64,000 nucleotides of DNA. Source: the human T2T-CHM13v2.0 reference genome, Homo sapiens. Shown one piece after another: positions 50,121 through 52,907 of the stretch (position 1 is its first letter; each line of letters starts with the position of its first letter). Below the pieces are notes generated by a model. It worked only from the letters and a program-made list of their open reading frames with translations, was not told the DNA's origin and did not search any database. The stretch lies in the NCBI RefSeq assembly GCF_009914755.1, contig NC_060926.1. One strand, 5' to 3'. Made by a program: the position numbers and the translations under genes.

Positions 50121-52405
50121 GTGAGGCACAGCCAGGAGATCAGGGATTGGATGTGGCCTCTTTACCTGACCTGGGATCTTACTCCCTTGACTTCCCTTTG
50201 ACCTGTATCTCATCCTCAGATCGTGACCATTTGGAAGAAGAAACAGCCAAATTCTTCACTCAAGTACACCAAGCCATTAAAACGTTACGAGATGGTGAGG
50301 AAGCCAAGAGCCCCAGGGCCTTGGGGCTTGGGTTGACAAAGGCCCACCCTCCAAGGCATTCTCAGAGGCCCATGTGGCCATGGGTGGGAGGTCTTGTGAA
50401 GGTGGGAGATGAATGCAGTCTGTCTCCGTGTGCTCTTTGGAACTTCCATGTAGAAACAAGGGTCTGAAAACCCAACCTTGAGCAAGTTGTAACCCTGAAC
50501 ACCCCTTCCCTCCTGCTCTACCCAGATAAAACAGTACTTCTGGAAGAGATCTACACGCACAAGAATCTCTTTACTGAGAGGCTGAATAAGATATCTGATG
50601 GGCTGAAGGAGAAGGGTAAGGGGTGGGGACGATCCCTGCACACGGCCTAGCCCTCCACACCTGCCAAGACCCAAGGCATGCAGATTTCACTCTGCAGCCC
50701 CCTCGATCATCCCCAGGAGCCCCACCCCTCTCCATGAATGCCTTCCCGGCTCCATCTCCTACTTGCACCCCAGAACCCCTTGGCTCTGTCTGCCTCCCCA
50801 GCACCTCAGTTTCTCTACCTTCTCACCCTCCCTGGCAGCCTGCAATGAGTCCTGTGGTGAGTATGCATGGGGACTGGGCCTGGGGGAGGGATGAAAGGCA
50901 CCTGGCACCCCCTAGCCCCTGTCCCTCCCCTCCCATAGACATACAGTCCACACTGAAGGTCACCAGCTGTGCTGACTGCAGGACTCACTTCCTCTCCTGC
51001 AATGACCCCACTTTCTGCCCAGGTCAGTGGCCACCACCCTGTCCAGCCTCTCCCCTCCCTGCCCTGCATTTCTGGAGCCATTGCTGTCTCTGTCATTCTC
51101 TTTTGCCCAACTCAAGCTTTTCTTGTTCTTTATCCTCACCCTGGGTGAAGGCAGCACCTTCTGGGATTTCTTGATGTCCTCATGTCAAGCTCCAGAGCCC
51201 CTTGGAGGCATCTGCCTGTAGGACATCACTCATGGAGGCCTCTTGGTTCTCAGAGATGCCATGCCTAGAAACATGACCAATCCTTACTCAGGAGGCTGAG
51301 GCAGGAGAGTCGCTTGGACCCGGGAGGTGGAGGTTGCAGTGAGCCGAGATCATGACACTGCACTCCAGGCTGGGCAACAGAGCAAGACTCTGTTTCAAAA
51401 AAAAAAAAAAGAAAGAAAAAAGAAAAGAAAAAGAAAAATGCCCAATCCCATCGAACCCCCAAACCTGTTCTTCCTCCAGGGCCGTTCTCAACAAATGGCC
51501 CCACTCAAGCCCTCAGTCTCCTAAACCAGGAATCTCCCTCCACTTAGCACGGAGAATCACCATGTCTTGCTAAATAAGTCTTCTATGTGTTCCCATAGTT
51601 TCATTCTAACCTCCACTCTCAGGCCTCCTCATCTCTCATCTAACTTACAGCAACATTTCCCATTAGCCTCCCTGTCCCTCCAGGCCACATCACACTCTGA
51701 ACTTCTTCTCAACGAGCAAGTCTACCCATGACACTCCCTGCTTATAACCAGCAGTGGTTCCCAAATGCCCCTAGAGAAAGCCCACCCTCCTCGGGAGCCC
51801 CCTACTCCCCAGGCACACTAAGTGCATACAGGCAGCTCCATACCTCTATCCTTGAGCGTGTCCTGTGCCGGGGACACAGCCTTGCCCTTGAACTGATCCC
51901 TTATTTGTGTTTCCAAGTCCAGCTCAGACTCCTGTTTTCTAAGAAGCTTTCCCTGATCAGCTCCCACCCCAGAGGCTTGTCAGCCATCCTCACTGTCACT
52001 TCCCCTCCCATGTCCTGTCCTATTTCCCTTGAACCCCACACCATGATTGTTTGCTTGTCTAGATATGAGCTGGGCGCACAGCGTGCTCAGTAAGTGTTTG
52101 CAAACACATCATGAGTGAACGAATCAAAGAATGAGAGGATGGTGGCCTTCTCTCTGAGTTGAGGTAGCCCTGCCTGGCCTCCAAACACCTGGCTTCCTCT
52201 TTCACACCCCAGCCAGGAACCGGCGGACCTCCCTGTGGGCTGTGAGTCTCAGCAGTGCTCTACTCCTGGCCATAGCTGGAGGTGGGTGAGTGACCTCTCC
52301 AAGCCCCAGCATCCCCAGGGAAGACACACCTATTCCCTGACTGACTCCACCCTGTTTCTTGGCCCAGATGTTTCTTTTACTGGCAAAGGAAGAAGGAGGC
52401 AGTAA
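49922..52405 (+). CDS. TEX51: TEX51 short isoform (166 aa): join(49922-50066,50220-50294,50526-50615,50939-51022,52213-52281,52368-52405)
   Basis: 501 nt = 166 aa + TAA. Reads ...TELSQ/NRDHLEEE...KEK/DIQS...[16 protein letters not shown], matching my recollection of the database TEX51 protein. Confidence 0.8.
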
Positions 52406-52907
52406 AGGTACTGGGAAAGGAGACCCCGACCCAATTCTAGGGCTCCCAGAGGGAAAAGCTGGGTGTGCCCTGGGAGTCTCAGGGCCTGGAACCCCAGTGC
52501 TGACCTCCTGGGGTCTGGCGTGCAGAACAGAGTGGGATCGAGGGCCAGGACTCTCAGGAGTGCCACTCATCAGCCTCCATATATGCAGACATATTGGGGC
52601 CAGGGGCCCAGGACACAGAAATGGCAAAGCTCCAGGCCTCCCATCCTCACTACAGAGTGCTCTTCCTCCCAGCTGTCCCTGTCCCCTGCACACCCCACCT
52701 TCACCCCTGCTGCCCTGCCCTGACCCACAGGGACCATTAGCATGGCTGCCTTGCCCTCTGCTCTGGGTTGGGTTTGGCCAGGGGAGACTCCCAGGAGGAA
52801 GTTAGAGAGACAGGGAGGAGGCCAGAGTAGTGGGAGGTCAGGGTAGAAATGCCCAGCTTCTTCTCCCTCAGCAGGAACAGGGCAGCCCGCATGTCTTCCA
52901 GAAGTGA
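49922..52907 (+). CDS. TEX51: TEX51, reconstructed full-length isoform (204 aa): join(49922-50120,50220-50294,50526-50615,50839-50856,50939-51022,52213-52285,52368-52407,52872-52907); signal peptide + Izumo-like Cys-rich helical ectodomain + TM + short tail
   Basis: ATG in cagaagATGc (A at -3). All introns are GT..AG with pyrimidine tracts and the frame is continuous: [22 protein letters not shown]...[86 protein letters not shown]. Gene identity is from recalled TEX51 sequence. This exon combination is my inference. Confidence 0.7.
50220..50294 (+). CDS. TEX51: TEX51 exon 2 (75 nt)
   Basis: atctcatcctcAG| acceptor, ATG|GTGAGG donor; encodes [24 protein letters not shown], an amphipathic helix-like segment. 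Confidence 0.9.
50526..50615 (+). CDS. TEX51: TEX51 exon 3 (90 nt)
   Basis: cctgctctacccAG| acceptor, AGG|GTAAGG donor; encodes [29 protein letters not shown]. Confidence 0.9.
50839..50856 (+). CDS. TEX51: TEX51 18-nt microexon encoding (A)CNESC
   Basis: Long pyrimidine tract ttctctaccttctcaccctccctggcAG|, donor GTG|GTGAGT, symmetric phase 1/1; supplies a CxxxC motif. Confidence 0.75.
50939..51022 (+). CDS. TEX51: TEX51 Cys-rich exon (84 nt)
   Basis: ccctcccctcccatAG| acceptor, CAG|GTCAGT donor; encodes [27 protein letters not shown]. Confidence 0.9.
51285..51437 (+). mobile_element. 5'-truncated Alu (right arm only) in TEX51 intron
   Basis: tactcaggaggctgaggcaggag... with A tail; degenerate TSD gaaacatgaccaatcc / gaaaaatgcccaatcc. 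Confidence 0.9.
51560..52130 (+). mobile_element. L2 fragment in TEX51 intron
   Basis: Ends gcacagcgtgctcagtaagtgtttgcaaac...gagtgaacgaat, like the L2 3' end. Confidence 0.55.
52213..52285 (+). CDS. TEX51: TEX51 TM exon; tandem donors after 52281 and 52285
   Basis: ttcctctttcacaccccAG| acceptor; GAG|GTGG|GTGAGT donors; encodes [22 protein letters not shown](G). Confidence 0.85.
52368..52407 (+). CDS. TEX51: TEX51 penultimate exon (40 nt), readable in two frames
   Basis: cctgtttcttggcccAG| acceptor, AAG|GTACTG donor; frame A gives [12 protein letters not shown], frame B gives [14 protein letters not shown]. Confidence 0.8.

What the first reader, a model, noticed from the sequence alone, without database searches (positions are those of the whole stretch)
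52270..52407. Tandem donors 4 nt apart switch the TEX51 C-terminus between a proper TM anchor and a frameshifted short tail
GGAG|GTGG|GTGAGT offers two donors. The upstream donor (52282) yields ...[19 protein letters not shown]: only ~16 hydrophobic residues cut off by Asp, with a stop 2 nt before the last junction, so it would escape NMD. The downstream consensus donor (52286) yields ...[22 protein letters not shown]: a ~23-residue TM with aromatic belt, a juxtamembrane Cys (possible palmitoylation) and a basic stop-transfer. This frame continues in phase 0 into the last exon and stops there. The second frame looks like the selected one, so the recalled reference tail may be a frameshifted variant, or the two may be a membrane versus weakly anchored isoform switch.
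Basis: partly seen in the sequence, partly recalled or inferred. Interest (0 to 1): 0.75.

Follow-up and report, generated by a model that had tools for sequence, protein, structure and literature searches.

The report
TEX51 four-base tandem splice donor
Two splice donors four bases apart at the end of TEX51 exon 5 give two alternative protein tails; both are already annotated, and the tail of the reference isoform is the frameshifted one, while the other matches the membrane anchor seen across mammals.

Summary
Exon 5 ends GGAG|GTGG|GTGAGT.

- **Upstream donor (GT at 52282):** gives ...[19 protein letters not shown]. Its TAA stop lies 2 nt before the last junction. This is the 166-aa reference isoform.
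- **Downstream donor (GT at 52286):** gives ...[22 protein letters not shown](Q)[10 protein letters not shown].

It is not new. The gene table lists exon 52213-52285. The 180-aa product is identical to the database protein named "isoform 8 precursor [Homo sapiens]". The motif is an ordinary GYNNGY tandem donor, a class of 122,198 human sites (PMC4267661).

Orthologues support the downstream frame as the shared mammalian one.

- Mouse, and 12 of 14 rodents in all, carry Ile or Val at the junction codon, which cannot hold the upstream GT.
- The closing Trp is present in 25 of 25 aligned proteins (that Trp was part of the motif that picked the rows), followed by Lys/Arg.

- The short-tail frame is also modelled in 31 species.
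- Primate substitutions do not favour either frame.
- The Cys is not conserved (13 of 25).

Relative usage of the two donors could not be measured.

The parts
52213..52281 (+). TEX51 exon 5 core. It encodes the first 16-18 residues of the membrane span (...[17 protein letters not shown]).
   Evidence: gene table given with the finding.
52282..52285 (+). GTGG: the 4 nt that are intron with the upstream donor and exon with the downstream donor. The upstream donor GT is at 52282-83, in the context GAG|GTGGGT.
   Evidence: U1 duplex -10.8 kcal/mol.
52286..52291 (+). Downstream donor GTGAGT, in the context TGG|GTGAGT.
   Evidence: U1 duplex -11.2 kcal/mol. The exon 52213-52285 is listed in the gene table.
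52287..52289 (+). TGA that ends the frame at ...AIAGGG* if intron 5 is retained.
   Evidence: 'intron5 retained', 156 aa.
52368..52407 (+). Exon 6 (40 nt), read in two frames: [12 protein letters not shown] or (G)[13 protein letters not shown].
52403..52405 (+). TAA stop of the upstream-donor frame, 2 nt before the exon 6 end.
52872..52874 (+). CAG of a CAGCAG tandem acceptor. It adds one Gln (180 against 179 aa) in the downstream-donor frame only.
   Evidence: both acceptors are in the gene table.
52875..52907 (+). Coding start of the last exon in the downstream-donor frame ([10 protein letters not shown]), with TGA stop at 52905-52907.

Best explanation
This is a GYNNGY (four-base) tandem 5' splice site at the end of TEX51 exon 5.

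- **Site strength.** The two GTs pair about equally well with U1 snRNA, so the spliceosome can use either. TEX51 is also spliced very loosely in testis.
- **Downstream GT (52286).** It keeps the frame that mammals share. The membrane helix is completed by G-G-x-aromatic-hydrophobic-aromatic-Trp and followed by a Lys/Arg stop-transfer and a cytoplasmic tail. This is the ancestral, properly anchored type I form.
- **Upstream GT (52282).** It removes 4 nt and shifts the frame. The helix is cut by Asp after about 16-18 apolar residues. In primates the frame ends after 11-13 residues at a TAA that lies 2 nt before the last junction.
- **Stability.** Because that stop is within 50-55 nt of the last junction, the shifted mRNA should not be degraded. 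It can therefore accumulate, which would explain how it became the reference isoform.
- **Most likely status of the shifted tail.** It is a tolerated by-product, not a regulated switch.

Shown: the sequence, the two frames, the annotation of both, the orthologue frames, the hydropathy and the U1 pairing. Inferred: escape from decay, weaker anchoring, and that the short tail is non-adaptive.
For: - **Sequence and frames:**
- **Both products exist as database proteins identical to the window-derived translations:** P0055 is the 166-aa form. P0054 is the 180-aa form named 'isoform 8 precursor [Homo sapiens]'.
- **U1 duplex energy:** -10.8 against -11.2 kcal/mol.
- **Classification of 153 database proteins by motif:** 59 carry the membrane frame (44 species across 8 orders), 32 carry the short-tail frame and 62 carry neither.
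- **Rodents:** 13 of 13 species whose models include exon 6 are in the membrane frame and 0 in the shifted frame. Of the 14 rodents with a visible junction codon (the 13 plus Phodopus, whose model skips exon 6), 12 have Ile or Val, including the mouse reference protein P0150. These codons cannot hold GT at positions 2-3, so the upstream donor cannot exist there.
- **Conservation in 25 membrane-frame proteins:** Trp161 25 of 25 (the selection motif required it), Gly154 25 of 25, Gly156 24 of 25, Lys/Arg at 164 and 165 in 24 and 25 of 25.
- **Hydropathy:** 1.87 against 1.64; a recalled Hessa-scale sum of about +1.3 against +4.3 kcal/mol.
- **Shifted tail length is not conserved:** 11-13 aa in 14 primates, and from 13 to about 60 aa in complete non-primate models (one truncated model shows only 6 aa).
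- **Loose splicing:** 25 human RefSeq transcripts (gene table); 33 TEX51 transcripts in bovine testis long reads, the most of any TEX gene (PMC11170998, passages).
- **Class behaviour:** alternative splicing at GYNNGY sites is mostly noise (PMC4267661, abstract and sections 13 and 17).
Against: - The reference (MANE/RefSeq-selected, UniProt canonical) isoform uses the upstream donor. This suggests it is at least abundant in human testis. I could obtain no read counts.
- The shifted frame is modelled in 31 species: 14 primates, colugo, rabbit, 14 cetartiodactyls and horse (plus P0090 by eye). In horse, water buffalo and cattle the two models are exactly the same downstream nucleotides read 4 nt apart. 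The tandem donor is therefore old.
- In anthropoid primates, 4 of 8 inferred exon 6 substitutions are silent only in the shifted frame against 1 only in the membrane frame. This is not significant against a 29:16 neutral opportunity, but it gives no support for stronger constraint on the membrane frame.
- Near-equal site strength is the feature reported for regulated GYNNGY sites (PMC4267661 abstract).
- Most orthologue proteins are computer models that may have been guided by the human or mouse reference.
Confidence: 0.55

Rival explanations
1. It is a regulated, dual-coding switch. Both donors are kept by selection and give two working proteins: a firmly anchored form with a cytoplasmic tail, and a weakly anchored or differently tailed form. 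In some lineages the upstream donor is the one that reaches the conserved distal tail.
For: - The tandem donor is implied in primates, colugo, rabbit, horse and cetartiodactyls.
- The two sites are of equal strength, a reported mark of regulated GYNNGY sites.
- Both mRNAs should escape decay, which is unusual. In PMC4267661, 72-74% of alternatively spliced GYNNGY sites put a stop codon in the next exon, and an earlier study cited there found 78% with a stop more than 50 nt upstream of the last junction.
- In horse and vicuna the shifted frame reads the conserved distal tail (...EQRPQLLLGSSLVSGFR*...SGSSLTSGFW*). Their membrane frame ends early.
- The substitution tally is 4:1 in favour of the shifted frame.
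Against: - The upstream GT cannot exist in 12 of 14 rodents, yet mouse Tex51 has a knockout phenotype.
- No shifted-frame model was found in 5 carnivore species.
- The shifted tail varies from 11 to about 60 aa.
- The 4:1 tally is within neutral expectation.
- No expression data show regulation.
Confidence: 0.2
2. The annotation is right as it stands. In humans the upstream donor gives the working protein, the 16-18 apolar residues plus Arg-rich tail suffice as an anchor, and the downstream-donor form is minor splicing noise.
For: - It is the selected reference transcript (gene table) and UniProt canonical form (PMC12615630 section 7).
- Its Kyte-Doolittle mean of 1.64 still passes the usual 1.6 threshold.
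- An Arg-rich tail follows the span.
- The stop of this frame is kept in all 14 primate species with such models.
Against: - The same reference isoform also lacks 18 residues present in all 15 orthologue rows of alignment A1, and the ACNESC micro-exon present in 11 of those 15.
- It gives no Pfam IZUMO match, while longer forms do. It therefore looks unrepresentative in several ways.
- The primate stop is a side effect of the Val-Lys codons (GTA AAG) of the other frame.
- The downstream-donor form carries a RefSeq name without the 'X' that marks predicted models.
Confidence: 0.2
3. The second donor is only a sequence coincidence and is never used.
For: GYNNGY occurs at 122,198 human donors and only 0.65% are alternatively spliced.
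Against: The exon 52213-52285 is in the gene table. P0054, a named human isoform, is identical to the translation through that donor.
Confidence: 0.02

Closest known systems
GYNNGY tandem 5' splice sites (four-base shift), as surveyed by Wang et al. 2014, PMC4267661
   Same: Two GT dinucleotides 4 nt apart. Both are used, and the choice shifts the reading frame. The second GT arises from the +5/+6 GT of the first donor's consensus.
   Different: Most such events place a premature stop that should trigger decay: 72-74% have a stop in the next exon, and an earlier study cited there found 78% with a stop more than 50 nt before the last junction. Here the shifted frame stops 2 nt before the last junction, so both mRNAs should be stable and both encode a complete ectodomain.
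NAGNAG tandem acceptors (class recalled from general knowledge, not from a call)
   Same: The same gene has CAGCAG at the last exon (52870-52875), with both acceptors annotated. This adds or drops one Gln.
   Different: A three-base shift keeps the frame. It matters only in the downstream-donor isoform, because in the reference isoform it lies after the stop.
IST superfamily sperm proteins (IZUMO1, SPACA6, TMEM95), to which TEX51 was assigned by structure in PMC12615630
   Same: Signal peptide, helical bundle with CXXC pairs, beta-hinge and a single C-terminal membrane span. Testis or spermatid expression.
   Different: TEX51 lacks the Ig-like domain (paper). The human reference isoform also lacks part of the bundle and the conserved end of the membrane span.
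Splice variants that restore the frame after frameshifting indels (rice study PMC8893660; search listing only)
   Same: In horse and vicuna the four-base donor shift brings the conserved distal tail back into frame.
   Different: No indel was demonstrated here at the DNA level. The inference rests on protein models read in two frames.

Membership tests
GYNNGY tandem 5' splice site | Two GY dinucleotides exactly 4 nt apart at an exon-intron boundary | tested here: met
   GT at 52282-83 and at 52286-87.
GYNNGY tandem 5' splice site | Both GYs serve as splice sites in real transcripts | tested here: met
   The gene table lists exons 52213-52281 and 52213-52285. P0055 and P0054 are identical to the two window-derived translations. 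Read-level usage was not testable here.
GYNNGY tandem 5' splice site | Regulated (tissue- or stage-dependent) rather than noisy use | not testable with these tools
   No RNA-seq was available. The term search for TEX51 in the supplements of the GTEx tandem-site catalogue found nothing.
mRNA that escapes nonsense-mediated decay (50-55 nt rule, textbook knowledge) | Stop codon in the last exon, or less than about 50-55 nt upstream of the last exon junction | tested here: met
   Upstream-donor frame: TAA 52403-05, with the junction after 52407. Downstream-donor frame: TGA 52905-07, in the last exon. Actual stability was not measured.
Type I single-pass membrane protein | C-terminal apolar span of about 20 residues followed by basic residues | tested here: met
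   The 180-aa form has a 23-25 aa span ending in Trp, then QRKK; Kyte-Doolittle mean 1.87. The 166-aa form has 16-18 aa, then Asp; mean 1.64, which is marginal. No dedicated membrane-topology predictor was available.
Pfam IZUMO (PF15005) | Score at or above the curated cut-off of 25 bits | tested here: inconclusive
   Human 166-aa and 180-aa forms: no match at E<=1. Gibbon 204-aa form: 16.3 bits. Mouse: 18.8 bits. Water buffalo: 25.8 bits (passes). The superfamily assignment in PMC12615630 rests on structure.
S-palmitoylated juxtamembrane cysteine | Cysteine near the cytoplasmic end of the span, conserved among orthologues | tested here: not met
   Cys157 is present in 13 of 25 aligned proteins. 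The others have Gly, Tyr, Trp, Val or Ser, and mouse has Gly. The modification itself is not testable here.

The most novel reading that the evidence does not exclude
The four-base tandem donor acts as an evolutionary frame adaptor for a labile, purine-rich cytoplasmic tail. The conserved distal tail motif (...EQ-R/K-x-QLL..SSL.S.F-W/R*) is reached through different donors in different lineages.

- It is reached through the downstream donor in rodents, water buffalo and squirrel and owl monkeys.
- It is reached only through the upstream donor in horse and vicuna.
- In humans it is open in the last exon (52876-52959) but reachable only by skipping exon 6.

Keeping both donors would then let the gene tolerate frameshifting indels in the Lys/Arg-coding run. 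The two stable human isoforms would be a real anchored versus weakly anchored pair.
Probability: 0.12. Interest if true: 0.55.

Novelty: already known. Interest (0 to 1): 0.25.

Why it matters
TEX51 was recently placed in the IZUMO1/SPACA6/TMEM95 group of sperm proteins. Mouse knockouts show sperm head and acrosome defects (PMC12615630; PMC12917576).

The human isoform most people would clone or model is the 166-aa reference. Compared with the form mammals share, it differs in three ways.

- It lacks 18 residues of the helical bundle.
- It lacks a six-residue Cys-containing micro-exon.
- It lacks the conserved end of the membrane span and the cytoplasmic tail.

For experiments on localisation, partner binding or antibody design, the 203/204-aa form is the better stand-in for the conserved protein. 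That form uses long exon 1, the micro-exon and the downstream donor.

This is a useful curation point, not a new mechanism.

Tried and rejected
- **Structure prediction of both isoforms, to compare helix length:** the tool accepted no jobs.
- **Junction usage:** no RNA-seq tool was available. A term search of the 7 held supplement files of the GTEx tandem-site catalogue (PMC8055015) for TEX51, and for an Ensembl gene id that I recalled from memory, gave 0 hits.
- **Peptide evidence:** a full-text search for the tail peptide [10 protein letters not shown] found 0 papers. Supplements are not covered by that search.
- **PMC12615630 supplements:** the isoform table and orthologue alignment are in PDFs that cannot be read here. 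The two readable spreadsheets hold structure-search hits and litter data only. Those PDFs may already show the tail difference.
- **Frame-specific selection in primates:** I rebuilt exon 6 nucleotides for 6 further primate entries (one, 'gibbon', combines two genera) from their two protein frames; human, as a control, returned the true sequence. Counting substitutions gave no significant difference between frames. Chimpanzee and gorilla were left out of the count because only one frame is available for them.
- **GPI anchor for the short form:** rejected, because the hydrophobic stretch is followed by a charged tail.
- **One literature search** failed on a syntax rule. It was replaced by the GYNNGY search.
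Full report
**1. What is there.**

Reading 49800-53200 shows that TEX51 exon 5 ends ...ATAGCTGGAG followed by GTGGGTGAGT. A GT sits at 52282-83 and a second at 52286-87.

I spliced the annotated exons in a script (repeated with more combinations).

- **Exon end 52281.** This gives the 166-aa protein ending ...[29 protein letters not shown]. 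Its TAA is at 52403-05, 2 nt before the end of the 40-nt exon 6 (52407).
- **Exon end 52285.** This gives ...[19 protein letters not shown]. Exon 6 then ends on a whole codon, and the frame runs into the last exon to a TGA at 52905-07. The product is 179 aa, or 180 aa with the alternative CAGCAG acceptor at 52872.

**2. It is already annotated.**

The gene table supplied with the finding lists exon 52213-52285 among the other transcripts.

A protein search seeded with the translation of 49922-50119 returned two human entries. P0055 is 166 aa. P0054 is 180 aa and is named 'testis-expressed protein 51 isoform 8 precursor [Homo sapiens]', without the X that marks predicted models. One search shows P0055 and P0054 are letter-for-letter identical to my two window-derived translations.

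PMC12615630 (section 7, read) states three things.

- The UniProt canonical form is the 166-aa type I membrane protein.
- Nine further isoforms of 52-203 aa are listed.
- Only the three isoforms of at least 190 aa have an intact four-helix bundle.

Its main text does not contain the word 'splice'. Its isoform table is in a PDF I could not read.

**3. What kind of thing it is.**

Two GTs 4 nt apart is the GYNNGY tandem donor, the commonest type of alternative 5' splice site. I read the abstract and sections 13 and 17 of PMC4267661.

- There are 122,198 such motifs at human donors.
- 796 of them (0.65%) are alternatively spliced.
- They are judged to be mostly noise.
- 72-74% put a stop codon in the next exon, and an earlier study the authors cite found 78% with a stop more than 50 nt before the last junction.

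The motif itself is therefore expected by chance.

A duplex calculation against the U1 5' end (a recalled 11-nt motif) gives -10.8 kcal/mol for GAG|GUGGGUGA and -11.2 for UGG|GUGAGUGA. The two sites are equally good, which makes mixed use mechanistically unsurprising.

The unusual point is that both products should escape nonsense-mediated decay. One stop is 2 nt before the last junction and the other is in the last exon. This rests on the textbook 50-55 nt rule and was not measured.

**4. Which frame is the conserved one.**

Two searches gave 153 database proteins. A motif classification sorted them as follows.

- **Downstream-donor ('membrane') frame:** 59 proteins. These cover 44 species: 12 primates, a tree shrew, 12 rodents, 5 carnivores, 3 perissodactyls, 8 cetartiodactyls, 2 bats and a mole.
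- **Upstream-donor ('DV') frame:** 32 proteins.
- **Neither:** 62 proteins. These are truncated, exon 6 skipped, intron-retaining or other models.

By eye, two of the 62 belong to the first two classes. Sigmodon is in the membrane frame. Horse P0090 is in the DV frame.

*Rodents.* Rodents are decisive for ancestry of function. All 13 species whose models include exon 6 are in the membrane frame and none in the DV frame. Fourteen rodents show the junction codon (the 13 plus Phodopus, whose model skips exon 6). Twelve of the 14, including the mouse reference protein (P0150...FLAVAG-IGGYFFWLQKRS...), have Ile or Val there. These codons cannot carry GT at positions 2-3, so the upstream donor cannot exist in them. 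Mouse Tex51 knockouts have sperm head and acrosome defects (PMC12615630, passages; PMC12917576, passages). The two studies differ on fertility.

*Residue conservation.* In an alignment of 25 membrane-frame proteins:

- the closing Trp is present in 25 of 25, though the motif used to pick these proteins required that Trp;
- the two flanking Gly are present in 25 and 24 of 25;
- the three residues before the Trp are aromatic or apolar in 22 to 25 of 25;
- Lys/Arg fill the third and fourth positions after the Trp in 24 and 25 of 25.

*Hydropathy.* The Kyte-Doolittle mean is 1.87 for the 180-aa form against 1.64 for the 166-aa form. Recalled Hessa-scale sums are about +1.3 against +4.3 kcal/mol. 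The uncharged run is 25 against 18 residues.

**5. Results that cut the other way.**

*Spread of the DV frame.* It is modelled in 31 species: 14 primates, colugo, rabbit, 14 cetartiodactyls and horse. For horse, water buffalo and cattle I showed that the two models of one species are the same downstream nucleotides read 4 nt apart, right up to the first stop. The tandem donor therefore predates the primates.

*Primate substitutions.* I rebuilt exon 6 nucleotides for orangutan, gibbon, pig-tailed macaque, baboon, squirrel monkey and owl monkey from their two protein frames. The human control returned the true sequence. Of 8 inferred substitutions:

- 3 change both proteins;
- 4 are silent only in the DV frame;
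- 1 is silent only in the membrane frame.

Against a neutral opportunity of 29 to 16 this is not significant. Primate data therefore do not show the membrane frame to be the more constrained one.

*Limits of the residue evidence.* Residue conservation in the DV frame is also high, as it must be when the nucleotides are shared.

*The reference choice.* The choice of the upstream-donor transcript as the reference suggests it is abundant. I could not test that.

*Independence.* Most orthologue proteins are computer models and are not independent of the human and mouse references.

**6. The reference isoform is atypical in other ways.**

In alignment A1 the 166-aa and 180-aa human forms lack 18 residues ([18 protein letters not shown], the exon 1 extension to 50120). 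These residues are present in all 15 non-human rows.

The human forms also lack the ACNESC micro-exon (50839-50856), which is present in 11 of those 15 rows.

The short exon 1 donor AAA|GUAUUC pairs poorly with U1 (-3.6 kcal/mol), against -8.6 for the long exon 1 donor.

Pfam IZUMO gives no match to the two short human forms. It scores 16.3 bits for the gibbon 204-aa form, 18.8 for mouse and 25.8 for water buffalo, against a cut-off of 25.

The human form with long exon 1, the micro-exon, the downstream donor and acceptor 52872 is 204 aa. It is 197 of 204 identical to the gibbon X1 model.

**7. Verdict.**

The useful residue is a curation point. The reference C-terminus is the frameshifted one relative to the mammalian consensus. 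The 203/204-aa form best represents the conserved protein.

Whether the short-tailed form has a role of its own remains open. It needs junction counts, peptides and membrane assays.

Noticed in passing
window 50067-50120 (exon 1 extension) and donors at 50067 and 50121: The reference transcript uses a weak donor (AAA|GTATTC, U1 duplex -3.6 kcal/mol) that drops 18 residues. These residues are present in all 15 orthologue rows of alignment A1. The stronger donor at 50121 (TTG|GTGAGG, -8.6) keeps them. Pfam IZUMO matches only forms that include this stretch.
   Followed up: partly
window 50839-50856: An 18-nt micro-exon encoding ACNESC is absent from the reference isoform. It is present in 11 of the 15 orthologue rows of A1, including mouse. 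Its donor GTG|GTGAGTAT has the best U1 pairing in the gene (-11.1 kcal/mol).
   Followed up: partly
window 52876-52962 (last exon, frame +1): An open frame [28 protein letters not shown] matches the distal tail of other mammals (water buffalo ...STEQRSQLLSGSSLTSEFW*, horse ...TEQRPQLLLGSSLVSGFR*, squirrel monkey ...SEQKPQLLSRSSLISGS...). In human it is read only if exon 6 is skipped after the downstream donor, as in a snub-nosed monkey model (P0038). Twenty-eight open codons are not significant on their own.
   Followed up: partly
proteins P0081/P0090 (horse), P0145/P0154 (water buffalo), P0108 (vicuna), P0101 (camel): The conserved distal tail is in the membrane frame in water buffalo but in the shifted frame in horse and vicuna. 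The membrane frame of horse and camel stops early (...LISHN*...RVTFN*). This implies frameshifting indels in the Lys-run or the start of the last exon during mammalian evolution.
   Followed up: partly
window 52282-52367 (intron 5, 82-86 nt): Retaining intron 5 ends the protein at ...AIAGGG* (TGA 52287-89). This is a hydrophobic C-terminus with no cytoplasmic tail. Models in crab-eating macaque, pygmy sperm whale and elephant end this way.
   Followed up: no
window 52408-52440 (start of intron 6): Reading through the exon 6 donor in the membrane frame gives [10 protein letters not shown]. Many non-primate models (dog, panda, rhino, tree shrew, mouse lemur) end with the matching ...VLGKETPA.. 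stretch. This suggests a common intron-retaining or alternative terminal form.
   Followed up: no
window 52870-52875: A CAGCAG tandem acceptor at the last exon, with both sites annotated. It adds one Gln only in the downstream-donor isoform.
   Followed up: yes
literature on mouse Tex51: Two knockout studies disagree on fertility. PMC12615630 reports hypofertility, with a lncRNA also disrupted. PMC12917576 reports normal litter size, with over 80% of sperm having malformed heads (passages).
   Followed up: no
window 51281-51445: An Alu-like fragment with an A-rich tail lies in intron 4. It is listed as masked in the gene table and is visible. It has no bearing on the finding.
   Followed up: no
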